The translations under genes and the position numbers were made by a program. Positions 6,360-31,395 of a stretch of 64,000 nucleotides of DNA are shown in pieces; within the stretch, counting starts at the first letter, position 1; each line of letters begins with the position of its first letter. The stretch lies in IMG/VR virus record IMGVR_UViG_3300048549_001527. One strand, written 5' to 3'. The notes beneath the pieces are model-generated. The model was not told where the DNA came from. It saw only the letters and a list, made by a program, of their open reading frames with translations, and made no database searches. The DNA is from a virus. Taxonomy: Duplodnaviria > Caudoviricetes.

Positions 6360-6964
6360 ATATTATATTTGTAAAGCACGGAGATAAGTACCACGCAGGT
6401 CATGTAAATCGACTTTATTCTCAGCTTGTTCAATATTACCCAAATGCAAAATTTCATTGTTATACAGAATACCCACAAGGTATTGATGAACAAGTAAATA
6501 TCATTTGGTGTTTTAACAAGCCATCATTAAAGTATTGGTGGAACAAGCTTGCGCTGTTCAGTGAAGATCTTCCTGTAGAAGGTAAGTGTTTGTTCTTTGA
6601 TTTGGATATGGATATTAAAAGAGATCCGTCTGAGTTTATTACATGGAAAGGTCTAACAGTCATACGTGATTATTGGAAAGACGATTTGTATATGGCTCCG
6701 CATGCTTATGATGTACACATAAATAGTTCTGTAATTACATGGACTGCTGGTGAACAGCGCGATGTATGGGAACACTTTTTAGAAAATAAAGATTACTTTA
6801 TGCGTAAGTATAAAGGTATAGACAGATTTATTGTTCACGAAAAGGTACCACACAATACGTTTGAACAAGGCTTAGTGAATAGTGTTAAATCACCTGCAAC
6901 ATGGGATGCGCCAATTGATATGTATAATGGATTGAAATATGAGTTACCGCGAAAATCTTTATAA
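6356..6964 (+). CDS. GT-A fold glycosyltransferase-like protein
   Basis: VKHGDKY N-terminus, FFDLD (DxD), INSSV, GIDRFI; ATGA overlap with radical SAM 5. Confidence 0.75.
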   Translation: MNIIFVKHGDKYHAGHVNRLYSQLVQYYPNAKFHCYTEYPQGIDEQVNIIWCFNKPSLKYWWNKLALFSEDLPVEGKCLFFDLDMDIKRDPSEFITWKGLTVIRDYWKDDLYMAPHAYDVHINSSVITWTAGEQRDVWEHFLENKDYFMRKYKGIDRFIVHEKVPHNTFEQGLVNSVKSPATWDAPIDMYNGLKYELPRKSL

Positions 6965-11236: not shown

Positions 11237-11824
11237 TTATAAATCATCCTGTCCATTAATGCATAGAATTAATCGAATATCATCTGTACCACCAATATTC
11301 CAGGCACTATGCAAACAACCTGGATTTACAAACCAAGCACTACCATCTGCTTTTAAATGTCTGACTTCTGGTATTTCATCAGTCTTACTTTTCACTGCAG
11401 TCATAGCCCAAGGATTTGTTTTGAGTGGAATATAAACTCGAATACTATAGTTTGTATCATAATCAATATGTGGAAGAATCATAGCACCTGGTTCTTTTAC
11501 GATCAGTCTGCTACGAGTGATTGGTGACTTAAACATACCAATCACTTCTTCAACATATGTTCCTTTGTATTCTGGTAAGATTTCACCATAGCATCTCTCA
11601 TCTTCATTACCATTACTAAGATACGTCAGCTCACCTTTGACTCCAGTAACTGGTGTTTGCTTATACTTGTCATTCAGATAAGGACTACCACAGACCTCAC
11701 TAATTGAATCTTGTTCATGATGGAAGTTTTCAAAACACTTTAAGAGACGATCTACATCAACTTGAACGTGTTCTATTTTTTTAAAATTTGGAAGCTCATG
11801 TCTTCTCTTAAGTGTGGTGGTCAT
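11237..11824 (-). CDS. 2OG-Fe(II) oxygenase 3 (Asp/Asn beta-hydroxylase-like)
   Basis: ILPHID...LHSAWN...RLIL; start placed at ATG 11824 after an AAGGA RBS. Confidence 0.8.
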   Translation of the reverse strand: MTTTLKRRHELPNFKKIEHVQVDVDRLLKCFENFHHEQDSISEVCGSPYLNDKYKQTPVTGVKGELTYLSNGNEDERCYGEILPEYKGTYVEEVIGMFKSPITRSRLIVKEPGAMILPHIDYDTNYSIRVYIPLKTNPWAMTAVKSKTDEIPEVRHLKADGSAWFVNPGCLHSAWNIGGTDDIRLILCINGQDDL

Positions 11825-12356
11825 AATGATTTCCTTCAAAAGGTGCAAAAATATTTATCCACCATTTATTAGTTGGTCCATTTTCGTCATGTCCAAAAAA
11901 GTTTATTAGACCGAAACTAACAAATGATATGGGTAAAAGTGCTGCTAAGTAAAGCAGAACGATTGGATTTATCAAATACGCTATTAAATAAGTTACCAAT
12001 AAAATAATCCACATAAACTTGTGTAAAAACATTGCTCTAGGATTTTTGTATAAAGATTTTATAAATTTTCTAGGAATAGACTTTACTCTAAACGTTGAAA
12101 ACAAAACTGTTATCGCTCCTTTATGTTTTGGGCTGTGAGGGTCTAATTCAGTATCAGAATAAGCATGATGCATTCTATGCATAGCAGCCCAAGTCAACGG
12201 AGATCTTGCGCAACATAGCAATCCAATGTACAAAACAAAAAATTCTAAAATAGGATTTAATTTTAGTTCATTGTGCGATAAACATCTATGATAACCGATA
12301 GTTAATCCTATAGCAGCCATTATCCAATAAAATACGTACAACATTATCAAACTCAT
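11808..12356 (-). CDS. Membrane fatty-acid desaturase (delta-9/DesC-like), compact
   Basis: Three His boxes: YHRCLSH, HRMHH, HYDHH; hydrophobic segments; ATG at 12356 overlaps the upstream TGA. Confidence 0.85.
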   Translation of the reverse strand: MSLIMLYVFYWIMAAIGLTIGYHRCLSHNELKLNPILEFFVLYIGLLCCARSPLTWAAMHRMHHAYSDTELDPHSPKHKGAITVLFSTFRVKSIPRKFIKSLYKNPRAMFLHKFMWIILLVTYLIAYLINPIVLLYLAALLPISFVSFGLINFFGHDENGPTNKWWINIFAPFEGNHYDHHT

Positions 12357-13066
12357 TTTAACACCTCGTAAGCATTGACCTGAAGAGCAAAAAAGAAAGT
12401 ATATACTCTTTCCGCAGTCGAGTAAGCGTGATGCCATTTTGCTGTATCAGCCAGATATAATCTGCCTTTTTCAACGTTTTCTTCTTCTATATATTCTTGT
12501 TTTTCTTCATCCCAAAAACAAAAATGATTATTTTCTGGATCGTTAGTTCCCCATATTCTCAAATTTGCAGGAGGAATAGTTACATCAATGTGTGGTTTGA
12601 AATGTGCCCCCGTGTTCCATTTTAATATAGTACAACGTGCTAACATTCCGTCAAATATTTGCATAGGATCTAAAGATTTCATATTTTTCATTATTTCATT
12701 TGGATATTTGAAATCTGTATCAAACAATGGGTTGTCTGGATGTTCTAAACACCACACATCCATTGGCCAATTAACTGGACTTGGTTTCATATCAATTGGA
12801 TTTTCAAGGTCTGTAAGTCCAAGAGAATACCTTTCTAAGTCAGTATGAGTAGGTCCAAATTGCTCGAATAAATGGTCGTATCTTTTTATCTCTTCTTCAA
12901 ATAAATCACAATCAATTTTTATATCCAAAGGAACAAGATTTTTAGTGTGAATTTCTCTATACTTTTCTTCAGGTAATCTATCTCGAGATAAAGAAAGATT
13001 TCTAAAATGTTCCCATTCCGGCCAGTTTGATAGTTTATCATAATTAGATCCAGGTTCATAATTCAT
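12353..13066 (-). CDS. 2OG-Fe(II) oxygenase 4
   Basis: FKPHID...WHHAYS. Confidence 0.75.
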   Translation of the reverse strand: MNYEPGSNYDKLSNWPEWEHFRNLSLSRDRLPEEKYREIHTKNLVPLDIKIDCDLFEEEIKRYDHLFEQFGPTHTDLERYSLGLTDLENPIDMKPSPVNWPMDVWCLEHPDNPLFDTDFKYPNEIMKNMKSLDPMQIFDGMLARCTILKWNTGAHFKPHIDVTIPPANLRIWGTNDPENNHFCFWDEEKQEYIEEENVEKGRLYLADTAKWHHAYSTAERVYTFFFALQVNAYEVLK

Positions 13067-13599
13067 AGTAAAACTCCAACCAAATGAATTCTTTCTGATC
13101 TACTACCATTAAAGGCTGCATGCATTTTTTCTGTATTAGTAATCCACCACTCATTATAAGGAATATGAAATACCTCATTTTCTATTACCATCTTGCAGGA
13201 TTGATCTGTTTTTATTGGGTAATGCAATCTTTTACTAACATCTTTATGCCAACTAGTACAAGCAAAAGGAACACTGCGCATTAGTCTTAATCTTCCTATT
13301 GTGTATCGATCATTTAGAAGATTAAAAACTTCTTCGAAAATTGTTCCTCTAAAAACATCACACAGAACAATAAAATCTTCATCGTATAGCGGATGTTCAA
13401 ATTTTGGTAAACGAACTATGTTTCCTGCTTTATCTTTAACTACTTTATCCCAATTGTAATATAAGCTTTTACATCCTATAGTCCAGTCATGAGATTTTCC
13501 TCCCGGAGCATTCAAGCAAATTTGGTTAAGATTCCAATTTACCAAACCTTTTGATATGAGCTGTCTTAACTCGTCTTCTAAATTTTCAAAAATTGGCAA
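13063..13599 (-). CDS. 2OG-Fe(II) oxygenase 5 (Asp/Asn beta-hydroxylase-like)
   Basis: SWHKD...LHYPI...MHAAFNGS...RIHLV; TTG start. Confidence 0.8.
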   Translation of the reverse strand: MPIFENLEDELRQLISKGLVNWNLNQICLNAPGGKSHDWTIGCKSLYYNWDKVVKDKAGNIVRLPKFEHPLYDEDFIVLCDVFRGTIFEEVFNLLNDRYTIGRLRLMRSVPFACTSWHKDVSKRLHYPIKTDQSCKMVIENEVFHIPYNEWWITNTEKMHAAFNGSRSERIHLVGVLL

Positions 13600-13622
13600 G
13601 TCGTTTAATTTAGAAAAGTGTT

Positions 13623-14225
13623 CTATTTTGAAACTCCTTCCAATTGTTTATATGCCCAGATTTTTTCTCTGCATTGCCAACATTCTTTGCATTCATTAAT
13701 AGTATTTGTAAGGCAACTCATTGTATTTGATAAATCTATATTTAACTTATTTGCTAGATCTATAATGTGATATTTATATAAATGAAGAAAAGGCGCGATT
13801 AGTTTATCGTTATTTTGTATTCTCCAAGGTCTGTAAGGAGCACCGTCTTTTAAATCTGGAAAATAATGACTCGGTGGAGTATGATTTATTCCAATGTATA
13901 ATTGATCATATTTACTTTGAATGGAAGCAATGGCTTCTTTTATCCTCAAATCTGGATTTAAAGTAGTTTCTTTAAATCTATGAACTTTTTGATTTGTTAA
14001 GGACTCTACTCGAGATGGATTGTCGAATCCATCTTTTCTATCTATAGTGTACACATCTGGATTATACGACTTAATTAAATTATATAAAACTAAACTATCT
14101 ATACCGCCTGACATCATAAGAGCAATTTTTCCAGCAGGAGATATAGTAACTAATCTTCTATCCCAAGTTGGACCGACTTTATGCATGGTTTTTATATTTG
14201 GAATAGTTTCACCAACTTTAATCAT
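13623..14225 (-). CDS. QueC-like PP-loop ATPase
   Basis: MMSGGIDS PP-loop; PF.HL.K.HII motif; C-terminal SC...CKECWQC zinc motif. An alternative GTG start lies at 14237. Confidence 0.75.
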   Translation of the reverse strand: MIKVGETIPNIKTMHKVGPTWDRRLVTISPAGKIALMMSGGIDSLVLYNLIKSYNPDVYTIDRKDGFDNPSRVESLTNQKVHRFKETTLNPDLRIKEAIASIQSKYDQLYIGINHTPPSHYFPDLKDGAPYRPWRIQNNDKLIAPFLHLYKYHIIDLANKLNIDLSNTMSCLTNTINECKECWQCREKIWAYKQLEGVSK

Positions 14226-14278
14226 ATTACGAAACACCTTTTACTTTTGCGACCATACTAAAAAATAATGTATACGTA

Positions 14279-16300: not shown

Positions 16301-16833
16301 TGTGTAAATCTGCTATTAAAAATCTCGCATCTTTACTTCGCACTGAAGTCTTCGACAAAATTGATTCCTATTGGACTGAGGCTGAAACTTATAGTATTAT
16401 TGAACTCAGAGATTTAGGTAGCGGATATTACGACGAAGATCGTTATCAAGTTAATCATATTGTTGCTCCTAAAAGGAGCGGTAGATCTATTGATGCAAAT
16501 AGTGCCAAAGGCGTATACATTTGGTATCACGGAGATCAGATTATGTATGTTGGTAAAACAGACGCGCCTTCAACGAGTATTCACAAACGGCAATATGCCC
16601 ACTCGCGTAGCTTTACAACACCACACGAAAGACACGAATCTTCAGGACGTAAATATCGCGAGTTTTTAAAAGAAAATAATTTACATTCTATGGATATTGT
16701 GATAAAATATATTAATACTGATAAGTTTGATATTGAAGGTATGGCAGAACTCATTGAAACTGCAACTATTAATAATTATCAGCCATTACTTAATCGTGAA
16801 ATTAAAGGGAGAGGCCAGAGAGAATGCTATTAA
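16300..16833 (+). CDS. Single-domain GIY-YIG endonuclease (DenA/EndoII-like size)
   Basis: GVYIW...IMYVGKT...KR...LIE...I..YQPLLN. Confidence 0.8.
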   Translation: MCKSAIKNLASLLRTEVFDKIDSYWTEAETYSIIELRDLGSGYYDEDRYQVNHIVAPKRSGRSIDANSAKGVYIWYHGDQIMYVGKTDAPSTSIHKRQYAHSRSFTTPHERHESSGRKYREFLKENNLHSMDIVIKYINTDKFDIEGMAELIETATINNYQPLLNREIKGRGQRECY

Positions 16834-17378
16834 TCATTGAAGGTATGGATCGCTGTGGTAAATCCACATTGGTACAAAACCTACGTAAAAAATATTTTAA
16901 AAATCCAAACATAATGGCTCACCATTCATCTTCTCCTCCTGACTTTGAAGATCCTAATGGTTGGGAAAAAGAACATTATGAGTCTTTGTTCATTGCATCT
17001 AAACGACTTGTAAATCAAATGAATTATGATATTATCTTTGACCGTTTCCATCTCGGTGCAATCGTCTATGGCGAAAAGTATCGTGCTGCAGACGGTAAAG
17101 ACATTTATGAATTAGATCGAAGGTTTCTTAGCGGATATAAAAATGCCGCTCTAATTTTGTTGACTGATACTACTGACGGTATTATGTCTCGTGATGATGG
17201 CGATAGCCTTGAACAAAGTAAAGAAGATTTCTTATATAGTCGTAACGCGTTTTTGACTGCGTTCAACGAGTCAAGCTGTAAACATAAACTAAGCATAAAT
17301 ATAACAAAGAACGGTGGAGTGGGTAACACATATGATACCGTTGTAAATTTTTTAGATGGAGTTCGTAATGAGAATTGA
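16824..17378 (+). CDS. Thymidylate kinase-family dNMP kinase
   Basis: IIEGMDRCGKST P-loop; IIFDRFHLG. Confidence 0.85.
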   Translation: MLLIIEGMDRCGKSTLVQNLRKKYFKNPNIMAHHSSSPPDFEDPNGWEKEHYESLFIASKRLVNQMNYDIIFDRFHLGAIVYGEKYRAADGKDIYELDRRFLSGYKNAALILLTDTTDGIMSRDDGDSLEQSKEDFLYSRNAFLTAFNESSCKHKLSINITKNGGVGNTYDTVVNFLDGVRNEN

Positions 17379-18066
17379 TAGTGTACATGACATTCGTGAG
17401 TTCTTTAAAGGCGAGCTAGCCGACGAAGCATTTACAATTGATAAGACAGGCCAACGGACTATTGAATTAATTGGCGCAAACTTTCTTGCAACAGAACCTG
17501 CAATCTTTGGTGAACCAAGTCAAGCTTATATTAACTCTGAGCTTGCTTGGTATGAGTCGCAATCAACAAACATTAATGATATCTATGGACCATCCAAACC
17601 TGCTCCTGCCGCATGGCAATATTCAGCAGATCCACACGGTAATATTAATTCCAATTATGGTCATTTAGTATTCTCTAAAAAATATCATAACCAATTCCAA
17701 AATGCTTTTGATGAACTATGGAGTAACCCTGATAGCCGTCGTGCTCAAATGATTTACAATCGTCCATCTATTTGGGTTGAGTTTGACGAAGGTGGTAAGT
17801 CTGACTTTATTTGTACTAATGCACAAACGTTTTATATCCGCGATGGCATTCTGATGATGGTGTCACAAATGCGTTCTAACGACGCAATCTTTGGCTATAA
17901 AAACGACTATGCTTGGGCTCAATATCTTATGGATAAGTTTGTTGCTCAATGGAACCAACAATGTAAACTTCCTGGCAATAAGCACTTTACTATTGATAAA
18001 GGTATGCTTACATGGCAAGCTATGAATTTGCACGTGTATGAGCGCCACTTTGACTTGGTTGTATAA
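17368..18066 (+). CDS. 42: T4 gp42-like dCMP C5-modifying enzyme (thymidylate synthase superfamily; hydroxymethylase or hydroxylase)
   Basis: DKTG..TIELIGA.F, ELAWY, INSNYG, DSRRA.MIY.RPS, SDFICTN (catalytic Cys), MRSND..FGYKNDYAW (Asp at the position that selects dCMP), LHVYERHF. Confidence 0.88.
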   Translation: MRIDSVHDIREFFKGELADEAFTIDKTGQRTIELIGANFLATEPAIFGEPSQAYINSELAWYESQSTNINDIYGPSKPAPAAWQYSADPHGNINSNYGHLVFSKKYHNQFQNAFDELWSNPDSRRAQMIYNRPSIWVEFDEGGKSDFICTNAQTFYIRDGILMMVSQMRSNDAIFGYKNDYAWAQYLMDKFVAQWNQQCKLPGNKHFTIDKGMLTWQAMNLHVYERHFDLVV

Positions 18067-18594: not shown

Positions 18595-19104
18595 ATGGAA
18601 GAACGTGAGCCTTACGAGGCATACATGCGTAGGCGCAATTTAGAAGAAGACACCCGTGAATTAAAATGGGATAACCGCTTTATGGAATTGGCTAAAACAA
18701 TTTCAGGATGGAGCAAAGATCCTTCGAGTAAAATTGGTGCAGTGGCAGTAAACGATGAACGCCGCATACTTGCGACTGGATATAACGGTTTCCCAAAAGG
18801 CATTGAAGATAGTCAAGAAAGACTAAACGATAGAGAACAAAAATATCCGCTTATTGTTCACGCTGAAACAAACGCGTTGATGAATGCGCTTTATGCTGGT
18901 GTTTCTTTAAAAAATGCAACAATGTACGTTCATGGATTACCCGTGTGTCCTGACTGTACTAAGCTTATTATTCAAGCAGGCATTCGTAGAATTGTTATTA
19001 ACAAATTCGTAATGAATACTCCAGAAAAATGGGTTGAGCTATGGAATAGCAAATCAGGACCTATGTTTAAAGAGGCAGGCGTATTGGTAACACAGCTTGG
19101 CTAA
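18595..19104 (+). CDS. cd: dCMP deaminase
   Basis: SKDPSSKIGA, GYNGFP, HAE.NA, PVCPDC zinc motif. Confidence 0.92.
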   Translation: MEEREPYEAYMRRRNLEEDTRELKWDNRFMELAKTISGWSKDPSSKIGAVAVNDERRILATGYNGFPKGIEDSQERLNDREQKYPLIVHAETNALMNALYAGVSLKNATMYVHGLPVCPDCTKLIIQAGIRRIVINKFVMNTPEKWVELWNSKSGPMFKEAGVLVTQLG

Positions 19105-19759
19105 TAATTTAACTGATATATATGTTGGCGTTAAGAAAAACGATCCTAATCGTAAAAAGAATGACTTTTATCCAACTCCGCCTCTTGCCACATATGTATT
19201 GTGCAAGTATGGTAATCCTCCACAAAATTTAATTGAACCTTGTGCCGGTCGAGGTAACATAACAAGAGAATTAGTTCGTAACGGTCATAATGTTATATCG
19301 TATGACTTAAATGATTATAGTGATAAATTAGTACCTATTAAAACTACAGTTGATGCTATGGAATTACAAAAGCTTGATGGCTTTGATGGTGTAGTTACCA
19401 ATCCCCCATATCATAAAGACTTGCCGCGGAAGATGGCGGAAAAATGGATAAAAGAATATGATTACGTCGCAATGTTTTTAAGACTAACTTTCTTTGAAGG
19501 AAAAAAACGAAATAAACTATTTACAAACTACCCGCCTAGTGATATAATATTTTTATCAGATCGAGTTAGATTTGATTCTAATATTGTAGAACCAATTGAA
19601 AAGAAAGATCAGATCGGCGGCATGATTGCATATGCTTGGTTCATTTGGAACAAAAAGTATCCGCAAGGATTAACTAAAATGCGTTGGGCAATGCTTGAAG
19701 ATGAATATGACGAGTGGAGATTAAATTATGATAAATGTAGTAATACCGGCAGCAGGTGA
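19097..19759 (+). CDS. Amino-DNA methyltransferase (N6-A or N4-C)
   Basis: DFYPTP, IEPCAGRG (motif I), VTNPPY (motif IV). Confidence 0.82.
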   Translation: MANNLTDIYVGVKKNDPNRKKNDFYPTPPLATYVLCKYGNPPQNLIEPCAGRGNITRELVRNGHNVISYDLNDYSDKLVPIKTTVDAMELQKLDGFDGVVTNPPYHKDLPRKMAEKWIKEYDYVAMFLRLTFFEGKKRNKLFTNYPPSDIIFLSDRVRFDSNIVEPIEKKDQIGGMIAYAWFIWNKKYPQGLTKMRWAMLEDEYDEWRLNYDKCSNTGSR

Positions 19760-21203
19760 GGCAACAAGATTAAAGCCATTAACTGCAAATTGCTCGAAGG
19801 CAATGATACGCGTACACGGTAAACCTACTATTGAATATATTATTGAGTCAGTTCATAATAACGGCGCTGTAGTTAATCAAATCATTATAGTTGATGGCAA
19901 GCATGACGATATTCGTGAGTGGGTTGCAAAATCAAAATATAATAATATTAAATGTGTAAAACAAGGATCTCTTAACGGTCCTCGTGATGCTATTGATGTT
20001 GGTATTAACAGTTTAGAAAATCCTACGTATCCTTTAGTTGTATGGCTAGGGGATGCAATTATTCTTGAAGAAGAACTACCTTTAGGCACTGACTTTTTAT
20101 TAACCAAAGAAGTTGAAGATCACTTTGCTTGGTGTATGTGGGATGGTAAAAAATACTTTAATAAACCAAAAGAAAATATTGAACAAGCTTCAGCTCTAGT
20201 AGGTCTATACAGTTTCAGTAGAGGATACGAAGCATATCACGCTTTTCACTACTCAAAAGGTTATGACATATCAGATGCTTTGGAGTTATATGAAGAACAC
20301 GCTTCATTTAATAATATCAACACGGAAAAATGGTATGACATCGGCGACATATCTTCATATCACAAAACTTGCGCAACTCTACTAACATTCAAAGCTCGTG
20401 AATTTAATTCGTTTGAATACAATTCAGATCTTAATATGATTACTAAATGGCCGCAGTCTGATAATAAATTTGCCGTTAAGACTATTATGAATGAAAAGAA
20501 TTGGTATGAAAATCTGAGCCCACTGCAAAATATGTTTGTTCCTAAAATTTTGCCAGATCCATATGCACTAACAATGTCATATGAGTCTGGTATTTTGCTA
20601 TCTGATTTGTTTATGCATGAGGATCTAAGCCCGTCTACTATTGAATACTTAATTGAAAAGGTATTCATTATAATGAACAAGTACTTCCATAAAAAAGCAA
20701 CACTTGAATTTGTCGCAGACTTTTGGGATAACGCTGAAAAAATGTGGATTGATAAAACCAAAAATCGTGGCGCTGATGATTATTATCTTGATGTTGCAGA
20801 GCGCTGTCTTAGTAGAGCTCGCCCAGTTTCAGGTATGCACGGTGATTTGCATTTCGGTAATATTCTTTATAATCCATATAACGATAGCATTACCTTGTTA
20901 GATCCGCGTGGCTCTTATGGAGATCATGTTGGTTGCGGCGGAGATTGGATGTATGATATGTGCAAATTGTCACACGACCTTTTCCATGGATATAATGAAT
21001 TAGTTTCCGGGCATAAATACCCTCAGACAGTACGTGAAACCTTTGGCCGATTGGTACTTAAATATTACCCTGACGCATATGATGATATTATTGACGGCGG
21101 CGCTTTGTTAATTGCAACTTGTTTGCCATTACATTACGACTGTGAAGAACGCCAACAAAGAATGAGAGATTATATTAATGAATACGCAAACCTTAGTAGT
21201 TGA
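19728..21203 (+). CDS. Sugar-phosphate nucleotidyltransferase fused to an APH/choline-kinase-like domain
   Basis: N-terminal VIPAAG.ATRLKPLT...KAM..V.GKP, W.DIG; C-terminal HGDLHFGNILY and LLDPRG. Confidence 0.88.
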   Translation: MINVVIPAAGEATRLKPLTANCSKAMIRVHGKPTIEYIIESVHNNGAVVNQIIIVDGKHDDIREWVAKSKYNNIKCVKQGSLNGPRDAIDVGINSLENPTYPLVVWLGDAIILEEELPLGTDFLLTKEVEDHFAWCMWDGKKYFNKPKENIEQASALVGLYSFSRGYEAYHAFHYSKGYDISDALELYEEHASFNNINTEKWYDIGDISSYHKTCATLLTFKAREFNSFEYNSDLNMITKWPQSDNKFAVKTIMNEKNWYENLSPLQNMFVPKILPDPYALTMSYESGILLSDLFMHEDLSPSTIEYLIEKVFIIMNKYFHKKATLEFVADFWDNAEKMWIDKTKNRGADDYYLDVAERCLSRARPVSGMHGDLHFGNILYNPYNDSITLLDPRGSYGDHVGCGGDWMYDMCKLSHDLFHGYNELVSGHKYPQTVRETFGRLVLKYYPDAYDDIIDGGALLIATCLPLHYDCEERQQRMRDYINEYANLSS

Positions 21204-21537
21204 TATTGATGACACGATTTGTACTCCGTTGCATGGCAGATCTGAATCTGAAGTTAAGTACGGAATGGCAAATCCTAATCGCCCAATGATTGCAAGTTTA
21301 CAAAAAGCAAAGAAAAACGGATATCGCATTGTACTTCATACCGCGCGACGAATGCTTACTCACGATGGTGACATAAATAAAATCATTAATGACGTCGGAA
21401 AAATAACCACAGACTGGTTGGATAAGTACGAAGTACCTTATGATGAAATTGTGTGGGGTAAACCACACGGTGTTTATTACATTGATGATAAAGCAATGAC
21501 TCCTGAAGAGTTCGTTAAGATGATGGAATGGAAGTGA
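21178..21537 (+). CDS. HAD-family phosphatase (capsule-biosynthesis phosphatase type)
   Basis: VVDIDDTIC, LHTARRM, WGKP, YYIDDKA. Confidence 0.85.
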   Translation: MNTQTLVVDIDDTICTPLHGRSESEVKYGMANPNRPMIASLQKAKKNGYRIVLHTARRMLTHDGDINKIINDVGKITTDWLDKYEVPYDEIVWGKPHGVYYIDDKAMTPEEFVKMMEWK

Positions 21538-21539
21538 TT

Positions 21540-22784
21540 ATGAAAAACATTGGTTTCGCAAAGATTGGTAAATCTATTAAATTTAAAACTAACAAGTACT
21601 CTCCCATTGGTGGAGATAATGAAGCGTCTTGCACTATACGAGCAATGGCAAACAACAACCCAGACAAAACGTTTTACCTAATTGGTCGTTCTGACTTTGG
21701 TGCATTGTCTGATACTGAACGTTTAGATTTGTTCCCATATGATAATGTAATTGACTGTTGGCACGGCGTTCCTTTGGCAATGTCAGAAACATATTATAAT
21801 CATATTATTAATTATTTTAAAGACATTGAGCTTGACTTTTCTGTTATGATGATTGGGCAAATTAGTAATGTTACAATCCCAGATAAAATTTGGAAAGTAC
21901 GTGAAAGTCAACAAGACGGCAAACCTGCTGCAACTCTTGATATGACTAAGTGGTACACAACTCCTATTACCAAATGGCTAAACGAAAGTAAGCCACGATG
22001 GATAGAAATTGTTAACGATCCACGATATGTTATCAAACAACCACGTGATGTATTTCATATGCCTTTCCGTTCTCTTGGACAATACGATTATGATTATGAA
22101 ACATTTTCTATTACTGATTACGAAAACCAAGAAAGATTAGTACGGGTTGTTCATTCTGAATATGCAGGAATGGAAACTGCTTTTTGCGGCGATTATGAAT
22201 ACACTGAACAAGTAAACACGGATCGTAACACAGACTTTATGGTTGTACTTAATGAAGGCAAACCGTCACGCTATAACTTACTTAAAAGCTGGGTACTTGA
22301 TAAATTTGATAACGTTGATATATACGGTAAGTGGCTCGACGAACGTGCTGAAAGCGACGAAAGGTTTAAAGGATCATTACATATCAATGAGATCCAAGAT
22401 AAACTACAGGATGTTAAGTTTACATTTATCATTCCAATTAAAGAAGGTTGGACCACATCAAAATATATTGAAATGATTCACGCTGGTGTTATTCCTTTCC
22501 TTCATCCAACTTATGACGACCAAGGTCATTTGCCTATTCCTAACTTTCTTAGACCTAAAACGCCTGAAGAATTTTATACAAATATGCAAAGACTAATTGA
22601 CAACCCAACAGAATACGAAACGGTTCTCAATGGATTGCGTAAAGCAATTCTTAAACCAGAATATTATGATGGTAGCTTTATTAATGACAATATTATGAAA
22701 GCTGCTGACGAAAATTATAAAAGACCTGACATGTTGCAGTTTACAAAGAAAAAAGCTGCGACACTTGAAGACTTTTTTGCATAG
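21540..22784 (+). CDS. GT-B fold glycosyltransferase, probably DNA-modifying (beta-glucosyltransferase-like)
   Basis: N-terminal G.AKIGK; C-terminal YGKW...FTFIIP...TSKYIEMIHAGVIPF GT-B signature; position inside the gp42/NDP-sugar locus. Confidence 0.65.
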   Translation: MKNIGFAKIGKSIKFKTNKYSPIGGDNEASCTIRAMANNNPDKTFYLIGRSDFGALSDTERLDLFPYDNVIDCWHGVPLAMSETYYNHIINYFKDIELDFSVMMIGQISNVTIPDKIWKVRESQQDGKPAATLDMTKWYTTPITKWLNESKPRWIEIVNDPRYVIKQPRDVFHMPFRSLGQYDYDYETFSITDYENQERLVRVVHSEYAGMETAFCGDYEYTEQVNTDRNTDFMVVLNEGKPSRYNLLKSWVLDKFDNVDIYGKWLDERAESDERFKGSLHINEIQDKLQDVKFTFIIPIKEGWTTSKYIEMIHAGVIPFLHPTYDDQGHLPIPNFLRPKTPEEFYTNMQRLIDNPTEYETVLNGLRKAILKPEYYDGSFINDNIMKAADENYKRPDMLQFTKKKAATLEDFFA

Positions 22785-22794
22785 AGGATATAAA

Positions 22795-24006
22795 ATGAGC
22801 GAAATTACATGGGCCCCAATTATTCCACTAATCGGTGGACAAATGCTAGGAGCAGAAAAAGCTTTTGGAAAACCACCTGAAGCTATCTATTCATACGCGG
22901 ACTTTGAAGGAAACGATAGTCATTATGTTAACTATCAGCAAAACGTCAAAGGGCGTGACGTACAATATAAAATGATACCTGAAAGTTCAAGTCGACATAT
23001 AAGTGTTATTTCAGGCACACCACCTTGTGCGGCATTATCACAACTTAACACTGGTAAAACCGAAGCGGCAAAAGGTGCAAAATGCGAAAAGAACGAATGG
23101 ATGTACGAAGTCTTTAAAGAAGGCATTAACCGATTTTCAGCTAAAGCTATTGTTGTTGAAAACGCTCCTGCACTGTTTACTAAAAAAGGTAAAGAAGTAG
23201 CTGATAATTTGTTTGACATTTGCTCAAAAGCAGGGTATAGTTTAACTCTATATAAAACATCTACAAAATATCATGGTATCCCACAAGCTAGAGATCGTTG
23301 TTTTGCCATTGGTTGGAATTCAGAAACCGCTCCTATTATGAATTGGTACAAACGGCCTCGTAAAAAGTTTCACGAATATCTTTCGGATTTAACAGACGAT
23401 ATTCAACAAATGGATATTTTGTGTAACAAAAAACTTGATGAAGAACCTTACTATCAATACATCAAGTCACTTACAAACGAAGATCCTCGTAAGGTAATTA
23501 TGGAAAGCGGACAGATTACGGCATTTAACTATATTAATAAAAGTGGTAAATTGCCTGCTTGTAATAAATGGATGCATGATACAAATAACGAACGCGGTAT
23601 CAAAGTATCAGACCATGCTGTTAAAAAGTTTGCAATGGGTAAAGGTATTTGGGATAGCTCAACACACGTCTTTGGAGATTGTATGAATGCAGTTATCGGT
23701 CGTAACCTTGCAGATACAATTCATCCAAAGTTTGATCGTTCTTTAACTATTCGTGAAGCGTTGTATCTTATGGGTTTCCCTCATGACTTTGAGCTTGTTG
23801 GCGGATTACCTAAAATGAATCATATTGCTCAAAACGTTCCTGTTCCAACATCAAGAGATATTCATACTGAAATCGGTAAGTTTATTCGTGGCGAGTTAAC
23901 GATGTCAGATACTAATTACCATCGTCAAGATAACCATAACGAACGGATGTGGTCTGATCCGGGTGGGAAAAACAACCAAGCAACACTTGAGGAGTTCATG
24001 GCTTGA
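22795..24006 (+). CDS. Divergent DNA cytosine-C5 methyltransferase
   Basis: GTPPCAALS (motif IV), VVENAP (VI), PQARDRCF (VIII), LTIREALYLMGFP (IX), IAQNVP (X); motif I degenerate (IIPLIGG). Confidence 0.82.
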   Translation: MSEITWAPIIPLIGGQMLGAEKAFGKPPEAIYSYADFEGNDSHYVNYQQNVKGRDVQYKMIPESSSRHISVISGTPPCAALSQLNTGKTEAAKGAKCEKNEWMYEVFKEGINRFSAKAIVVENAPALFTKKGKEVADNLFDICSKAGYSLTLYKTSTKYHGIPQARDRCFAIGWNSETAPIMNWYKRPRKKFHEYLSDLTDDIQQMDILCNKKLDEEPYYQYIKSLTNEDPRKVIMESGQITAFNYINKSGKLPACNKWMHDTNNERGIKVSDHAVKKFAMGKGIWDSSTHVFGDCMNAVIGRNLADTIHPKFDRSLTIREALYLMGFPHDFELVGGLPKMNHIAQNVPVPTSRDIHTEIGKFIRGELTMSDTNYHRQDNHNERMWSDPGGKNNQATLEEFMA

Positions 24007-24638
24007 AACACGACTTTATTATAGATTTTGAGACATTCGGCAAGGATGCTCAAAAGTGCGCAGTGATTGACTGTTCGGTGATGGTATTCAGTTGGGATAA
24101 AATGATTTCAGCTGATCCATATACTCTTGCAGATATATCAAAAACAAAACGATTTAAACTATCCGTGGTAGATCAAGTTAAAAATTATGGATGGGAAATT
24201 GATAAAGGAACAGTTACATGGTGGGAATCCTTAGGACCTGAAGTTCGTAGGAACATTAAACCACTTCCAACTGATTTAACTGTTGCTGATTTTACCAAGC
24301 AATTTCATGACTTTTTAATTGACTCGCCAAAGATTAGTAAATGGTGGTCTAGGTCAAATACATTTGACCCGATTATTCTTGGTCGTTTATTTCAATCACA
24401 AGATAAACTATTACATATGGAAGAGTACTTAAAGTATTGGGCAGTCCGCGATACACGTACTTATATTGATGCAAAGTTTGATTTTAAGCAAAAGAATGGG
24501 TTTATTCCATTTGCTGACGAACAGCGTTGGGAACAGATGTTTAAAGCTCACGACAGCTCGTGGGATATTTTAGCAGATGTATTACGCATGCAAGCAATTC
24601 GTAGGGCTGAGGAAGATTTAGAACAGGTGACAACATGA
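24003..24638 (+). CDS. dexA: DexA-like DEDD 3'-5' exonuclease
   Basis: IIDFET, SRSNTFD.IIL, VRDTRT, AHDSSWD. Confidence 0.8.
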   Translation: MKHDFIIDFETFGKDAQKCAVIDCSVMVFSWDKMISADPYTLADISKTKRFKLSVVDQVKNYGWEIDKGTVTWWESLGPEVRRNIKPLPTDLTVADFTKQFHDFLIDSPKISKWWSRSNTFDPIILGRLFQSQDKLLHMEEYLKYWAVRDTRTYIDAKFDFKQKNGFIPFADEQRWEQMFKAHDSSWDILADVLRMQAIRRAEEDLEQVTT

Positions 24639-25528
24639 ATTTAAACGTAACTATTGAAGACTTACAACAATATAAAATCTTTGTTGGTACACCAATGTAT
24701 GGTGGACAATGCGCAGGCTTATTCACAAAGGCTTGTAACGATCTTGCTATGTTGTGTACGGCTAATAAAATTCCAATTAAGTTTTATTATCTTTTTAATG
24801 AAAGTTTGGTACAAAGAGCTCGTAACTATATTGTTGATGAATTCCTACGCTCAGACTCAACGCATTTAATGTTTATTGATTCCGACATTGGTTTCAATCC
24901 AAGAGATGTTATTTCACTTATGGCAATATATCATTCAGATCCTGATAAGTATGACATTTTGACCGGACCTTATCCTAAAAAGACTATTGCGTGGGAAAAA
25001 GTTCATATGGCCGCAAAGGCAGGTAAAGGCGATGAAAATCCTTTTGAGCTTAACGAATTTACTGGAGACTTTGTATTTAATCCAGTAGGTGGAGTTACTA
25101 GTTTTAAAATGGATGCACCACTTGAAGTTGGTGAAGCAGGTACAGGATTTATGTTAATACCTCGTAAAGTATTTGAAGATTACCGAGCTGCATACCCTGA
25201 ATTGTCATATAAGCCAGACCACGCAAGAACTGAAAACTTTGACGGAGAACGTGATATTACAGCATTCTTTGATTGTATAATTGATCCAAAAACACGGCGG
25301 TATTTGTCTGAGGATTACTTCTTTTGTCAAAAGGCAAGAGCAATACAAAAAAGAGTTTGGATGTGTCCATGGATGAGAATGACTCATGTTGGTTCTTATA
25401 TGTTTAACGGTAATATGTCTGCTCTTGGATCTTTAGGAGCGTCTCCAACCGCAAATAAACAAAGCAATTCTAAGAACTATAAAAAACCATTGACAAAAAC
25501 CAAAAAACGTAATAAAATAAACAAATGA
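24635..25528 (+). CDS. GT-A fold glycosyltransferase-like protein
   Basis: GTPMYGG, LVQRARN, FIDSDIGF (DxD), GTGFMLI, LSEDY.FC. Confidence 0.7.
   Translation: MNLNVTIEDLQQYKIFVGTPMYGGQCAGLFTKACNDLAMLCTANKIPIKFYYLFNESLVQRARNYIVDEFLRSDSTHLMFIDSDIGFNPRDVISLMAIYHSDPDKYDILTGPYPKKTIAWEKVHMAAKAGKGDENPFELNEFTGDFVFNPVGGVTSFKMDAPLEVGEAGTGFMLIPRKVFEDYRAAYPELSYKPDHARTENFDGERDITAFFDCIIDPKTRRYLSEDYFFCQKARAIQKRVWMCPWMRMTHVGSYMFNGNMSALGSLGASPTANKQSNSKNYKKPLTKTKKRNKINK
25490..25518 (+). promoter_or_regulatory. Sigma70-type promoter for the clamp/loader operon
   Basis: TTGACA-17nt-TAAAAT within the 3' end of the upstream gene. Confidence 0.7.
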
Positions 25529-25550: not shown

Positions 25551-26216
25551 ATGAAATTTTCTGAACGCACTCTTACTATTCTTAAGAGTTTCTCTACTAT
25601 CAACAAATCAATCCAAATGAAGCAAGGGAATACCCTTCGTACCATTACACCTGAAAAAACACTGATTGCATCCGCAACAATCCCAGATCAGTTTCCATCA
25701 GAAGCATGTATTTACGATTTGTCAAGATTTTTATCAATTTTGTCACTTCATACTGCGCCAGACGTAGAGTTTCATGATAAATACTTTGTAATCACAGAAG
25801 GTAAACAGCGTACTCGTTACGCCTTTGCCGACGTTTCCATGATACACGCAGCGCCTGAAAAAACCATTGAATTGCCGTCGGCTGATGTGGTTGTTGATGT
25901 ATCTTGGAATGATTTGCAATCTGTTCAAAAAGCGGCAGGTGTTCTTCAGTTTAATGAAGTTGCATTTGTTGGCCAGGATGGAAAGTGTTACTTAAAGGCC
26001 ATTGATAGTTCGTCTGCGGCAGCGGATGACTACGGTGTAGAAATTGGCGATACTGCCGATGAGTTTAAAATTATTATTAAAACTGATAATTTGAAGCTCT
26101 TACCTCAAGATTACAGAGTTACGCTGTCAAGTAAAGGTATCTCTGAATTTAAAGGTGAAGACGTCACGTATTTCGTGGCTATTGATACAAAGTCGACTTA
26201 TAAGAAAGGATCCTAA
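25551..26216 (+). CDS. 45: Sliding clamp
   Basis: MKFSERTLTILKSFSTINKSI, IYDLSRFL, NLKLLPQDY.V; operon with the clamp loader. Confidence 0.92.
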   Translation: MKFSERTLTILKSFSTINKSIQMKQGNTLRTITPEKTLIASATIPDQFPSEACIYDLSRFLSILSLHTAPDVEFHDKYFVITEGKQRTRYAFADVSMIHAAPEKTIELPSADVVVDVSWNDLQSVQKAAGVLQFNEVAFVGQDGKCYLKAIDSSSAAADDYGVEIGDTADEFKIIIKTDNLKLLPQDYRVTLSSKGISEFKGEDVTYFVAIDTKSTYKKGS

Positions 26217-29447: not shown

Positions 29448-29508
29448 TAGTAGACGCTCAACAGAGGTCTATTAAAATTAACTCGCTTATTTAAGGAGAA
29501 CAAAAATG
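29448..29508 (+). promoter_or_regulatory. ROSE-like RNA thermometer in the hsp20 5' UTR
   Basis: Hairpin 1 TAGAC-G-CTC/GAG-GTCTA; hairpin 2 CTC-G-CTT/AAG-GAG sequesters the SD with a bulged G; contains UCGCU (ROSE consensus UYGCU). Confidence 0.7.
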
Positions 29509-29964
29509 ACTAGAACTAAATTTAATGCGGCAGCGCTAAACGATCCATTGTTTATCGGATTTGACAGAATGTTAGAAAGAATGAATTCTGTTGATACAGT
29601 GCATCGCAACACGTCCAATTATCCCCCATATAATATTGTAAAAGTAGACGAAGATAATTTTACTATAGAACTGGCATTAGCTGGTTTTAAAGATGAAGAT
29701 ATTGACGTTACACTAAAAGATGGAGTATTATATGTTGAAGGTAACCAAGGTGATAACGATGAAAAAACATATTTGCATCGTGGGCTATCGGCTCGTTCCT
29801 TCCGTAGATCTTTTACAATAGCTGATACCATTGTTGTTAATGGAGCAGATTTTGTAAATGGCATTCTAACCATTTCGTTAGAAAATGTAATTCCTGAAGA
29901 AAAGAAACCTCGAAAGATTGCTATCAACAACGGAAATCATAAGGCTGAACTTCTCAACGGGTAA
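29506..29964 (+). CDS. hsp20: Small heat-shock protein Hsp20 (IbpA-like)
   Basis: FIGFDRM, NYPPYNI, ELALAGF, YLHRGLS.RSF.RSF, NGILTI.LE..IPEEKKPRKI. Confidence 0.95.
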   Translation: MTRTKFNAAALNDPLFIGFDRMLERMNSVDTVHRNTSNYPPYNIVKVDEDNFTIELALAGFKDEDIDVTLKDGVLYVEGNQGDNDEKTYLHRGLSARSFRRSFTIADTIVVNGADFVNGILTISLENVIPEEKKPRKIAINNGNHKAELLNG

Positions 29965-30966: not shown

Positions 30967-31395
30967 ATGAAAAATTTAATTACCGCTAGTATTATGGCGC
31001 TTTTTGCAACAACGGCATATGCTGAAGATATGACTGTTGAAATGTTGAACAAACGTGATGATGGCGCTAAGATGGTATATAGTGAAGATATCGCACGTAT
31101 TGACGTAGGTGATACAATCACATGGGTACCAACATCAAAAGGTCACAATGTAGAATTTATTGCGGGCCCAGACGGATGGAAAGCACCAAAGAAATCAAAA
31201 CTTAACAAAGAAGTGGCGATTACATTTGATACACCAGGCGTATATCTATATCAGTGTTCGCCACACAAAACAATGGGCATGATTGCCATTGTGGTTGTAG
31301 GTAAGCCAGAAGGTGAAGCTAAAGATCGTTTGAAAGATGTCAAAGTAAAAGGCAAGTCAAAGAAGAAGTTCAAAGAGTTACTGGCTGATCTATAA
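30967..31395 (+). CDS. Pseudoazurin (periplasmic type-1 copper protein)
   Basis: Signal peptide; VEMLNK..DG.KMV; GHNVEF; Y.Y.CSPH..MGM (His, Cys, His, Met ligands). Confidence 0.92.
   Translation: MKNLITASIMALFATTAYAEDMTVEMLNKRDDGAKMVYSEDIARIDVGDTITWVPTSKGHNVEFIAGPDGWKAPKKSKLNKEVAITFDTPGVYLYQCSPHKTMGMIAIVVVGKPEGEAKDRLKDVKVKGKSKKKFKELLADL

What the first reader, a model, noticed from the sequence alone, without database searches (positions are those of the whole stretch)
22795..24006. C5-cytosine MTase with degenerate SAM motif I next to an enzyme that already occupies C5
Seen: motifs IV, VI, VIII, IX and X are intact, but FxGxG is replaced by IIPLIGG. Known: a 5-substituted cytosine cannot be C5-methylated, and C5-MTases can in vitro remove or exchange hydroxymethyl groups on hmC. 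Inference: it either methylates residual unmodified C as a back-up layer, or has been repurposed to act on the gp42-derived base.
Basis: partly seen in the sequence, partly recalled or inferred. Interest (0 to 1): 0.7.

Follow-up and report, generated by a model that had tools for sequence, protein, structure and literature searches.

The report
Odd cytosine methylase in hmC phage
A marine T4-like phage that already builds its DNA with 5-hydroxymethylcytosine also carries a conserved enzyme with the cytosine-5 methylase fold, a rebuilt cofactor site and a likely sliding-clamp-binding tail. It belongs to a large uncharacterised family found almost only in such phages, so its reaction is worth testing.

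Summary
The gene (22795-24006, +, 403 aa) is real and encodes a complete C5-cytosine DNA-methylase fold. The catalytic Cys78, the motif VI Glu and the motif VIII RxR are present. IIPLIGG is there, but it is not degenerate. P-L-x-G-G is nearly invariant across 150 cluster representatives of a large clade, together with PC(A/S)(G/A)LS, ENAP and QNVP, and the motif II acid is not conserved.

The gene lies in one + strand module: dNMP kinase, gp42-type dCMP hydroxymethylase, dCMP deaminase, sugar-nucleotide genes, a T4 beta-GT-like DNA glycosyltransferase, this gene, gp45.

In 11 of the 12 family contexts I could assess (30-72% identity), a dCMP-type thymidylate synthase homologue (Asp at ThyA-169 and -177) accompanies it. 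No TET was found in nine related records. The gene follows whichever hmC-tailoring enzyme is present (beta-GT, alpha-GT or an HMUDK-like kinase).

In T4-like members it and the tailoring enzymes end in the same tail as a relative's DNA polymerase, which points to gp45 clamp tethering.

Best reading (0.45): a clamp-tethered enzyme that gives a C5 substituent to cytosines left unmodified in new phage DNA. The donor (SAM or not) is unresolved. Main rival (0.25): it acts on 5hmC itself. The family is uncharacterised. A lead on the shared tail came from earlier scan notes on this same stretch.

The parts
22795..24006 (+). C5-cytosine DNA-methylase-fold gene (403 aa), member of the 'PLxGG / PCAGLS / ENAP / QNVP' clade
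   Evidence: PF00145 E 2.2e-24. AF2 pLDDT 95. VIA Z 25.8 to M.HaeIII 1dct and 24.6 to M.HhaI 2i9k. TIGR00675 scores 59.2 bits, below its cut-off of 100.65.
22819..22839 (+). Motif I variant IIPLIGG (residues 9-15)
   Evidence: Aligned to F-x-G-x-G-G by hhalign. P-L-x-G-G is nearly invariant in 150 representatives.
23017..23040 (+). Motif IV TPPCAALS with catalytic Cys78 (23026-23028)
   Evidence: Cys is present in all 143 ungapped rows. PCQ is replaced by PC(A/S)(G/A)LS.
23158..23169 (+). Motif VI ENAP (Glu122)
   Evidence: E150/151, N148, A147, P145.
23272..23298 (+). Motif VIII HGIPQARDR (Arg166, Arg168)
   Evidence: R166 and R168 are each 150/151.
23722..23841 (+). Motifs IX (HP..DRSLTIRE..LMGFP) and X (QNVP)
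23980..24003 (+). C-terminal tail ATLEEFMA, a putative gp45 clamp-binding (PIP-like) peptide
   Evidence: Only this ORF and the upstream GT end this way in the 64 kb window. The gp43 polymerase of a relative ends NTIEDFFS. 109/120 close homologues carry the tail. Complex test gave weak support.
21528..22784 (+). GT-B DNA glycosyltransferase ('GT418'), T4 beta-glucosyltransferase-like, with tail ATLEDFFA (22758-22781)
   Evidence: AF2 pLDDT 91.8. The top six Foldseek matches are T4 beta-GT entries. It lies directly upstream of the methylase-like gene in 62/62 loci with enough flank.
17356..18066 (+). gp42-type dCMP hydroxymethylase (5hmdCMP synthase)
   Evidence: E 8.7e-57 to T4 gp42 1b49/1b5e. 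Catalytic Cys is kept, and Asp is at ThyA-169 and -177.
16824..17378 (+). dNMP kinase-like gene overlapping the start of gp42
   Evidence: Weak Thymidylate_kin hit. It is syntenic with gp42 in relatives.
18595..19104 (+). dCMP deaminase
   Evidence: PF00383 E 3e-21.
19097..19759 (+). N6-adenine-type DNA methyltransferase (NPPY), present only in the closest relatives
   Evidence: phrog_799 E 2.1e-43. Found in loci L004, L008, L010 and L080.
19728..21203 (+). Bifunctional sugar-1-P nucleotidyltransferase (N-terminal) and kinase-like (C-terminal) protein, AfhE-like architecture
   Evidence: PF00483 plus weak ABC1. NCBIfam sugar-1-P nucleotidyltransferases. Architecture as in RB69/DLP3/HY126 (PMC13326640).
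21178..21537 (+). Small HAD phosphatase (AfhF-like position)
   Evidence: HAD_PNKP, weak. phrog_1238 E 3.9e-22.
24003..24638 (+). Rv2179c-like 3'-5' exonuclease
   Evidence: PF16473 E 3.4e-14.
24635..25528 (+). Second putative glycosyltransferase ('GT297'), conserved beside gp45
   Evidence: phrog_1574 E 3.2e-58. Weak Anp1 hit. Synteny.
25551..26216 (+). gp45 sliding clamp
   Evidence: Conserved position. Homologues in L116-L118 hit PF09116 gp45-slide_C. Used.

Best explanation
The gene encodes a catalytically equipped enzyme with the full C5-cytosine DNA-methylase fold. It belongs to a large, uncharacterised phage clade that travels with pre-replicative cytosine replacement (a gp42-type dCMP hydroxymethylase).

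Proposed mechanism:
- Its C-terminal tail matches the DNA polymerase tail of a related phage of the same T4-like group, and it shares that tail with the adjacent beta-GT-like glycosyltransferase. The tail tethers the enzyme to the gp45 sliding clamp on newly replicated phage DNA.
- The enzyme flips out a cytosine-type base. Cys78 attacks C6, Glu122 and Arg166/168 hold the base, and C5 receives a one-carbon unit.
- Its role is to finish what gp42 starts. Cytosines that entered nascent DNA unmodified are given a C5 substituent after replication, so no bare C remains.

The donor is the open step. The adenosine-binding elements of the SAM pocket (motif I Phe and Gly, motif II acid) are replaced by other conserved residues. 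Small residues (PCA, ENA) replace PCQ and ENV, which in canonical enzymes lie near the target C5. I therefore split this explanation about evenly: SAM giving 5mC, or a formaldehyde-level donor giving 5hmC that the neighbouring transferase can then decorate.

Shown: fold, catalytic residues, motif conservation, synteny, co-occurrence, shared tail.
Inferred: substrate, donor, clamp binding in vivo.
For: Fold and catalytic residues:
- PF00145 hit, AF2 pLDDT 95, Z 25.8/24.6 to M.HaeIII/M.HhaI over residues 1-367.
- Cys78, Glu122, Arg166 and Arg168 are essentially invariant in 150 representatives.

Link to C5-substituted genomes:
- gp42 is present in 19/19 long-flank relatives.
- A dCMP-type thymidylate synthase homologue (Asp169/Asp177) accompanies the family in XG4, L083, L087, S-TIM5, L100/106, L101/102, L103, L104/105, L116 and L118.
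- No Tet_JBP was found in 9 related records.
- Co-location of a dCMP-type thymidylate synthase homologue with a dCMP deaminase marks contigs experimentally enriched for modified C (bioRxiv 2024.12.05.627091).

A role independent of the tailoring chemistry:
- The gene follows a beta-GT-like GT (window, XG4, L083), an alpha-GT TAGT (L118), an HMUDK-like kinase (L116), or heptose-type activation genes (L087/L088).

Acts on C rather than hmC:
- One siphovirus contig, rated 87% complete, has the enzyme and a GT418 homologue but no thymidylate synthase homologue and no TET.
- Long fused forms on short marine metagenome contigs, one with a CXXC finger, also have no known hmC source.

Clamp tether:
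- The tail is unique to this gene and GT418 in the window.
- The gp43 polymerase of a relative ends NTIEDFFS.
- In L116 the kinase, a 354-aa protein and the methylase-like protein all carry such tails.
- 109/120 and 105/120 homologues of the two genes keep it.
- In T4/RB69 the polymerase C-terminal PIP peptide binds gp45 (PMC3012046).
- Complex test of gp45 x3 with residues 355-403: weak support, score 0.46 against a best control of 0.00. The mark was reached by 51 of 78 solved complexes and 2 of 108 mismatched pairs, but at 0.60 or under by only 5 of those 78 and by all 4 mismatches that passed. Runs agree in at least 47% of contacts, and partner pLDDT is at least 39. A like complex (1b8h) is solved, so the pass may come from memory.
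Against: - Relatives carry a PRA-PH/MazG-like candidate dCTPase near the module. Little unmodified C may therefore be left to patch.
- T4 itself needs no such enzyme.
- The rebuilt cofactor pocket is unexpected for a plain SAM-dependent patch enzyme.
- No natural non-SAM donor is known for this fold.
- The TRD region is variable (22% pairwise identity against 43% for the catalytic core), and two intact tandem paralogues occur in L100/L106. This suggests site-specific rather than global action.
- No biochemical data exist for any member that I could find.
Confidence: 0.45

Rival explanations
1. The enzyme acts on the gp42-derived base itself. Cys78 adds to C6 of 5hmC (or of phosphorylated or glycosylated 5hmC). 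The 5-CH2-O-X group leaves to give an exocyclic methylene intermediate, and a nucleophile adds. This makes it a cofactor-free tailoring enzyme, the natural counterpart of the atypical reactions reported for C5-methylases in vitro (hydroxymethyl removal, thiol/selenol exchange; recalled from the literature, not checked here).
For: - C5 is already occupied in the phage's DNA (gp42 type), and relatives have a candidate dCTPase.
- The SAM adenosine-binding elements are replaced, and small residues (PCA, ENA) replace PCQ and ENV next to the target C5 position.
- In L116 the gene follows an HMUDK-like DNA kinase that would create a leaving group on the hydroxymethyl.
- The gene always sits among the tailoring enzymes and shares their tail.
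Against: - It is equally present where the tailoring enzyme is a beta-GT or alpha-GT, which needs no such partner.
- It is present in a siphovirus contig with no thymidylate synthase homologue or TET.
- It is present in cyanophage S-TIM5, whose ThyA-like dCMP-type enzyme may make 5mdCMP rather than 5hmdCMP (inference).
- Some fused relatives carry a CXXC finger, a domain known to read unmethylated CpG.
Confidence: 0.25
2. It is an ordinary sequence-specific SAM-dependent 5mC writer kept for anti-restriction or regulation. Its motif I is just a lineage quirk, and its position in the hmC module is synteny without functional coupling.
For: - Nearly all PF00145 members are SAM methylases.
- The motif X Asn and the GG of motif I are kept.
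- The variable TRD and the tandem paralogues look like ordinary specificity diversification.
- Phage MT+GT clusters with active SAM methylases are known (PMC8256090).
Against: - Co-occurrence with a dCMP-type thymidylate synthase homologue in 11 of 12 assessable contexts at 30-72% identity, in different genome backgrounds, is not expected by chance.
- The known MT+GT clusters need a TET, and none was found.
- A methylase cannot methylate 5hmC.
- The motif I and II replacements are conserved, not drifting.
Confidence: 0.12
3. The thymidylate synthase homologue and the adjacent deaminase together make 5hmdUMP (dCMP -> 5hmdCMP -> 5hmdUMP). Thymine rather than cytosine is then replaced and glycosylated, cytosine stays free, and this enzyme is the phage's main cytosine modifier (5mC).
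For: - The thymidylate synthase homologue and deaminase genes are adjacent or overlapping in most contexts.
- Some phage deaminases of this kind deaminate 5hmdC or 5mdC nucleotides.
- An HMUDK-type kinase domain, named for 5hmdU DNA, occurs in L116.
Against: - The enzyme is 50%-identity class to T4 gp42, which serves 5hmC DNA.
- GT418's best structural matches are T4 beta-GT, an hmC enzyme.
- In the cited screen only 7 of 90 candidate deaminases gave 5hmdU, and all seven had linked thymidylate synthases predicted to make 5mdCMP (five confirmed).
- The route is roundabout compared with known dUMP hydroxymethylases.
Confidence: 0.08
4. The protein is catalytically silent and serves as a clamp-bound, base-flipping DNA-binding adaptor or shield for the tailoring enzymes.
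For: The clamp-type tail is shared with the GT, and the cofactor site is remodelled.
Against: The catalytic Cys, Glu and both Arg are invariant across about 150 diverged representatives, which argues for retained chemistry.
Confidence: 0.05

Closest known systems
Bacterial and phage C5-cytosine DNA methyltransferases (M.HaeIII, M.HhaI; PF00145)
   Same: The whole two-domain fold (Z 25.8/24.6). The catalytic PC cysteine, the motif VI Glu, the motif VIII RxR, and motifs IX and X are recognisable.
   Different: F-x-G-x-G-G is replaced by (I/V)-P-L-x-G-G. The motif II acid is not conserved. PCQ becomes PCA, ENV becomes ENA and GN becomes QN. There is a conserved extension after motif X (residues 361-387) and a clamp-type tail. 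It scores below the TIGR00675 cut-off. It lives in genomes whose cytosine C5 is already substituted.
Phage C5-MT / 5mYOX (TET) / glycosyltransferase clusters (PMC8256090; bioRxiv 2023.12.21.572611)
   Same: A methylase-fold gene sits beside DNA glycosyltransferases and sugar-activation genes, including the HAD-APH plus cytidylyltransferase plus GT-B heptose-type sets.
   Different: No TET/JBP gene was found in nine related records. The hydroxymethyl comes from a gp42-type enzyme before replication, so the methylase step of that pathway has no obvious place.
CmoX, DNA cytosine C5-carboxymethyltransferase of Synechococcus phage S-B43 (PDB 8yf3; PMC12783734)
   Same: It is a phage C5-methylase-fold enzyme that transfers something other than methyl and creates a handle for hypermodification. 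The structural match is Z 22.6.
   Different: CmoX keeps SAM-type binding (Cx-SAM) and is defined by an SPPC motif, Arg350 and a neighbouring CmoA. Here the motif is TPPC, motif X reads QNVP, and no CmoA was noticed in the module.
T4 hmC pathway (gp42, gp1, gp56, alpha/beta-GT) and the RB69/DLP3 arabinosyl-5hoC cluster (PMC13326640)
   Same: gp42-type enzyme, dNMP kinase, beta-GT-like transferase, a bifunctional nucleotidyltransferase/kinase and a HAD phosphatase.
   Different: Neither T4 nor the RB69/DLP3 cluster is described with a methylase-fold member; the term 'methyltransferase' occurs 0 times in PMC13326640. The thymidylate synthase homologue here keeps Asp169, so it is not of the 5hoC type.
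DNMT1-PCNA and T4 gp43-gp45 PIP-box tethering
   Same: A short terminal hydrophobic/acidic peptide is used to ride the sliding clamp behind the fork (PMC3012046). The tail here matches the polymerase tail of a related phage.
   Different: Clamp tethering of phage DNA-modifying enzymes (GT, kinase, methylase-like) has not, to my knowledge, been described. Binding here rests on sequence likeness and a weak complex prediction.

Membership tests
C5-cytosine DNA methyltransferase (PF00145 / TIGR00675) | Two-domain C5-MTase fold | tested here: met
   AF2 pLDDT 95. Z 25.8 with 1dct, rmsd 2.8 over 273 residues. Z 24.6 with 2i9k, rmsd 3.0 over 287 residues.
C5-cytosine DNA methyltransferase (PF00145 / TIGR00675) | Profile score over the curated cut-off | tested here: inconclusive
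   Pfam PF00145 scores 86.9 bits, above its cut-off of 22. NCBIfam TIGR00675 scores 59.2 bits, below its cut-off of 100.65.
C5-cytosine DNA methyltransferase (PF00145 / TIGR00675) | Motif IV Pro-Cys nucleophile, motif VI Glu, motif VIII Arg-x-Arg | tested here: met
   Cys78, Glu122 and Arg166/168 are invariant or nearly so in 150 representatives.
C5-cytosine DNA methyltransferase (PF00145 / TIGR00675) | Motif I F-x-G-x-G SAM-binding loop | tested here: not met
   IIPLIGG. Phe becomes Ile (family I/V/Q) and the first Gly becomes Leu (134/138); the GG is kept.
C5-cytosine DNA methyltransferase (PF00145 / TIGR00675) | Motif II acidic residue at the end of strand 2 (binds the SAM ribose) | tested here: not met
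   hhalign puts it on Tyr34 (Y92/F22/W10). The adjacent position 35 is variable, with D+E in 38 rows among its six commonest residues. The alignment could be off by one residue; neither position is a conserved acid.
C5-cytosine DNA methyltransferase (PF00145 / TIGR00675) | SAM-dependent methyl transfer to cytosine C5 | not testable with these tools
   Needs binding and activity assays.
CmoX carboxymethyltransferase system | SPPC motif, Arg350 contacting the carboxylate, neighbouring CmoA | tested here: inconclusive
   The motif here is TPPC (family V/T-P/C-P-C), and motif X is QNVP without Arg/Lys. CmoA was not searched for systematically, and none was seen in the module.
Phage C5-MT / TET / GT post-replicative pathway | A TET/JBP (5mYOX) dioxygenase beside the methylase | tested here: not met
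   No PF12851 match at E<=0.1 in 9 related records: G001-G007, XG4 and S-TIM5. No such hit appeared among the window ORFs scanned.
gp42-type pre-replicative 5hmC pathway | dCMP hydroxymethylase with Cys148, Asp at ThyA-177 (dCMP specificity) and Asp at ThyA-169 (not 5hoC) | tested here: met
   E 8.7e-57 to T4 gp42. The motif is RSNDAIFGYKND. The rule comes from PMC13326640.
gp45 clamp-binding (PIP-like) clients of T4-like phages | Terminal peptide like that of the cognate DNA polymerase, binding the clamp pocket | tested here: inconclusive
   Tail ATLEEFMA compared with relative gp43 NTIEDFFS. Complex test gave weak support: 0.46 against a best control of 0.00, with the calibration counts as.

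The most novel reading that the evidence does not exclude
This clade is a natural C5-methylase-fold enzyme that no longer uses SAM. Riding the sliding clamp, it performs hydroxymethyl-level chemistry on DNA. It either installs 5hmC on leftover cytosines from a formaldehyde-level donor, or exchanges the group on 5-CH2-X of 5hmC derivatives. In effect it makes the 'atypical' in vitro reactions of C5-methylases a physiological step of phage DNA hypermodification.
Probability: 0.4. Interest if true: 0.9.

Novelty: new variant of a known kind. Interest (0 to 1): 0.72.

Why it matters
If the clade has a non-methyl reaction, it would be a new enzymatic route to modified cytosine in DNA and a candidate tool for site-directed DNA labelling or epigenome mapping. 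It would also explain why hundreds of marine phage lineages that already replace cytosine keep a methylase-fold gene.

Even if it is a SAM-dependent patch enzyme, two points are new and testable. The first is post-replicative completion of a pre-replicative base replacement. The second is that DNA-tailoring enzymes (glycosyltransferase, kinase, methylase-like) carry a polymerase-type clamp-binding tail. Isolated phages exist for these tests (Pseudoalteromonas phage vB_Psh_XG4, cyanophage S-TIM5).

Tried and rejected
- No whole genome is held for the window. Genome-wide absence of ThyA, dCTPase, TET or an arabinose-5-P isomerase in this phage could therefore not be tested, and relatives' records were used instead.
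- A profile scan of IMG/VR with distant members failed because no stretch was conserved enough. The single-protein scan with P0198 found nothing.
- I first thought the enzyme was a specific partner of the beta-GT-like GT418. I rejected this. No GT418 homologue was detected in S-TIM5, G004, G006, G007 or G010 (an empty answer, so weak). More decisively, the gene follows other tailoring enzymes in L116 and L118.
- I considered that a conserved TRD would imply non-specific action. I rejected this because the TRD is the least conserved part.
- CmoX-type carboxymethyl transfer: the defining motifs are not seen.
- 5-hydroxycytosine (RB69 type): rejected by Asp169.
- A PRA-PH/MazG-like dCTPase candidate found in relatives has no tblastn match in the window. 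MazG PF03819 gave nothing.
- The protein Atlas search returned only generic methylase clusters.
- Literature searches found no paper on this clade.
- I could not obtain model coordinates. The SAM pocket was judged from alignments only.
Full report
**Observation.**
The ORF at 22795-24006 (+) starts with ATG, ten bases after the stop of the upstream gene. It encodes 403 aa that match PF00145 (E 2.2e-24). IIPLIGG is at residues 9-15. Profile-profile alignment with four canonical phage C5-methylases, which all read F-x-G-x-G-G, puts Ile10 on the Phe and Leu12 on the first Gly.

**The motif is conserved, not decayed.**
An exhaustive HMMER search found 1542 cluster representatives (260 at E<=1e-30), nearly all full-length at about 400 aa. 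In the best 150, at 30-72% identity, the pattern is as follows:
- Motif I: P-L-x-G-G is almost invariant (P 130/138, L 134/138, G 138/138, G 137/138).
- Motif IV: Cys78 is present in every ungapped row, and PCQ is replaced by PC(A/S)(G/A)LS.
- Motif VI: ENV is replaced by ENAP.
- Motif X: GN is replaced by QNVP.
- Motif II: the acidic residue has no conserved counterpart.

The protein scores below NCBI's dcm superfamily cut-off, 59 against 100.65 bits. This is therefore a distinct clade under purifying selection.

**Fold.**
An AlphaFold2 model from 92 sequences (pLDDT 95) superposes over residues 1-367 on M.HaeIII (Z 25.8), DNMT1, M.HhaI (Z 24.6) and CmoX (Z 22.6). The catalytic apparatus for covalent attack on a flipped cytosine is intact. 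What has changed are the elements that hold the adenosine of SAM in canonical enzymes, and two residues that flank the target C5 in M.HhaI. The latter assignment is from my knowledge of M.HhaI and was not tested here.

**Neighbourhood.**
All genes from 16.8 to 29 kb are on the + strand, in this order:
- a dNMP kinase-like gene;
- a gp42-type dCMP hydroxymethylase (E 8.7e-57 to T4 gp42, with Cys and both diagnostic Asp kept);
- dCMP deaminase;
- an N6-methylase;
- a bifunctional nucleotidyltransferase/kinase and a small HAD phosphatase, with the architecture of the AfhE/AfhF sugar-activation pair of RB69, DLP3 and HY126;
- a 418-aa protein whose model best matches T4 beta-glucosyltransferase;
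- the methylase-like gene;
- an exonuclease;
- a second putative glycosyltransferase;
- gp45 and gp44.

By the published rule, Asn at ThyA-169 marks 5-hydroxycytosine synthases (PMC13326640). The enzyme here keeps Asp, so it is of the hydroxymethyl type.

**Co-occurrence.**
- In 80 IMG/VR loci of the same T4-like lineage the order is fixed. GT418 is directly upstream in 62/62 loci with enough flank, and gp42 is present in 19/19 with at least 7 kb upstream.
- More tellingly, family members at 30-50% identity in other genome backgrounds sit in equivalent modules. These are Pseudoalteromonas phage XG4, the L083 group, L087, jumbo-size contigs L100-L106, L116 and L118, and cyanophage S-TIM5.
- Every thymidylate synthase homologue involved has Asp at positions 169 and 177.
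- No TET/JBP gene was found in nine records.
- The one exception is a 27.7 kb siphovirus contig rated 87% complete. It has the enzyme, a GT418 homologue and CMP-sugar genes, but no thymidylate synthase homologue and no TET.
- The gene follows whichever tailoring enzyme is present. That can be a beta-GT-like enzyme, a T4 alpha-GT-type TAGT, an HMUDK-like DNA kinase plus a 354-aa protein, or heptose-type activation genes.
- Relatives also carry a PRA-PH/MazG-like candidate dCTPase near the module. This is part of the gene set that marks experimentally modified-cytosine contigs.

**Clamp tail.**
This followed a lead from earlier notes of this scan on the same stretch.
- Only GT418 and the methylase-like protein end in ATLE(D/E)F(F/M)A among all ORFs of the window.
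- The gp43 polymerase of a related phage ends in NTIEDFFS.
- 109/120 and 105/120 close homologues of the two genes keep such a tail.
- In L116 the kinase, the 354-aa protein and the methylase-like protein all carry one. In L118 the alpha-GT does, and in L083 both enzymes do.
- In T4 and RB69 the polymerase's C-terminal PIP peptide binds a pocket on gp45 (PMC3012046).
- A complex prediction of three gp45 copies with residues 355-403 gave weak support: 0.46 against a best control of 0.00, with the calibration counts and caveats. A similar complex is solved, so the pass may reflect memory.

I take the tail as good sequence evidence, not proof, that these enzymes work on clamp-loaded, newly made phage DNA.

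**Interpretation.**
The enzyme is a working part of cytosine-replacement modules and acts on the phage's own nascent DNA. Its role does not depend on the tailoring chemistry. It also occurs where no hydroxymethyl source is detectable: the siphovirus, and long fused forms (one with a CXXC finger) on short marine contigs.

These facts fit best with action on cytosines that are still unsubstituted, a post-replicative completion of the gp42 pathway (0.45). The donor is unresolved, for two opposing reasons:
- Parsimony favours SAM.
- The conserved loss of the Phe/Gly of motif I and of the motif II acid, together with the PCA and ENA changes, favours a different donor or none.

The main rival is action on 5hmC or its activated forms by covalent catalysis (0.25). 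The HMUDK-kinase context fits this well, but the glycosyltransferase-only and thymidylate-synthase-free contexts fit it poorly. Lesser rivals are:
- an unrelated ordinary methylase (0.12), which is hard to square with the co-occurrence;
- a 5hmU route that leaves cytosine free (0.08);
- a silent adaptor (0.05).

**Limits.**
- No genome is held for the window.
- Most contigs are fragments.
- The lineages were sampled, not enumerated.
- The pocket was judged from alignments, not coordinates.
- Nothing here measures chemistry.

Noticed in passing
window 662-6359 (+), continuing to 10872: Five tandem paralogous radical SAM/SPASM genes. They are followed by a glycosyltransferase-like ORF (6341-6964, phrog_1962) and several ORFs with no family. 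This may be a second modification or maturation cassette.
   Followed up: partly
window 11237-14237 (-): A minus-strand block with two Asp/Arg-hydroxylase-like 2OG oxygenases, a fatty-acid-desaturase-like protein and a QueC-like C-terminal fragment match.
   Followed up: no
window 29506-29964 and 30967-31395 (+): An Hsp20-like small heat-shock protein (by eye from the translation) and a plastocyanin (PF00127). These are cyanophage-style auxiliary genes in a gp42-bearing T4-like phage.
   Followed up: no
L002/L091 (cyanophage S-TIM5, NC_019516.2 140905-141741): The annotated 'thymidylate synthase' gp076 has Asp at the ThyA-N177 position (RSNDMATGVPLD) with a ThyA-like PPCH active site. It is therefore predicted to modify dCMP (possibly to 5mdCMP). 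S-TIM5 also has the methylase-like gp080.
   Followed up: partly
L100 6822-9253; L106 9929-12398: Two tandem methylase-like paralogues, both with all clade motifs intact. They end in a different short tail (..STCLF / ..SKTLF).
   Followed up: partly
L116 4482-11209 (also L117): An hmC-type thymidylate synthase homologue and deaminase, followed by a 2OG oxygenase, an inositol-1-phosphate synthase, an HMUDK_hel kinase, a 354-aa protein and the methylase-like gene. This suggests an undescribed 5hmC hypermodification that goes through a phosphorylated intermediate.
   Followed up: partly
P0183 (L120), P0152 (L086), P0159 (L121): Long fused forms of the clade (598-1462 aa) on short marine metagenome contigs. 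One has a C-terminal CXXC zinc finger. They may be eukaryotic or giant-virus proteins.
   Followed up: partly
window 23875-23955 (residues 361-387 of the protein): A conserved extension after motif X, with Gln378 and Asn380 nearly invariant, that canonical C5-methylases lack. In the model it forms a beta-hairpin. It could close the former cofactor pocket.
   Followed up: no
window 19097-19759 (+): An NPPY N6-adenine-type DNA methylase is inserted in the module only in the closest relatives.
   Followed up: no
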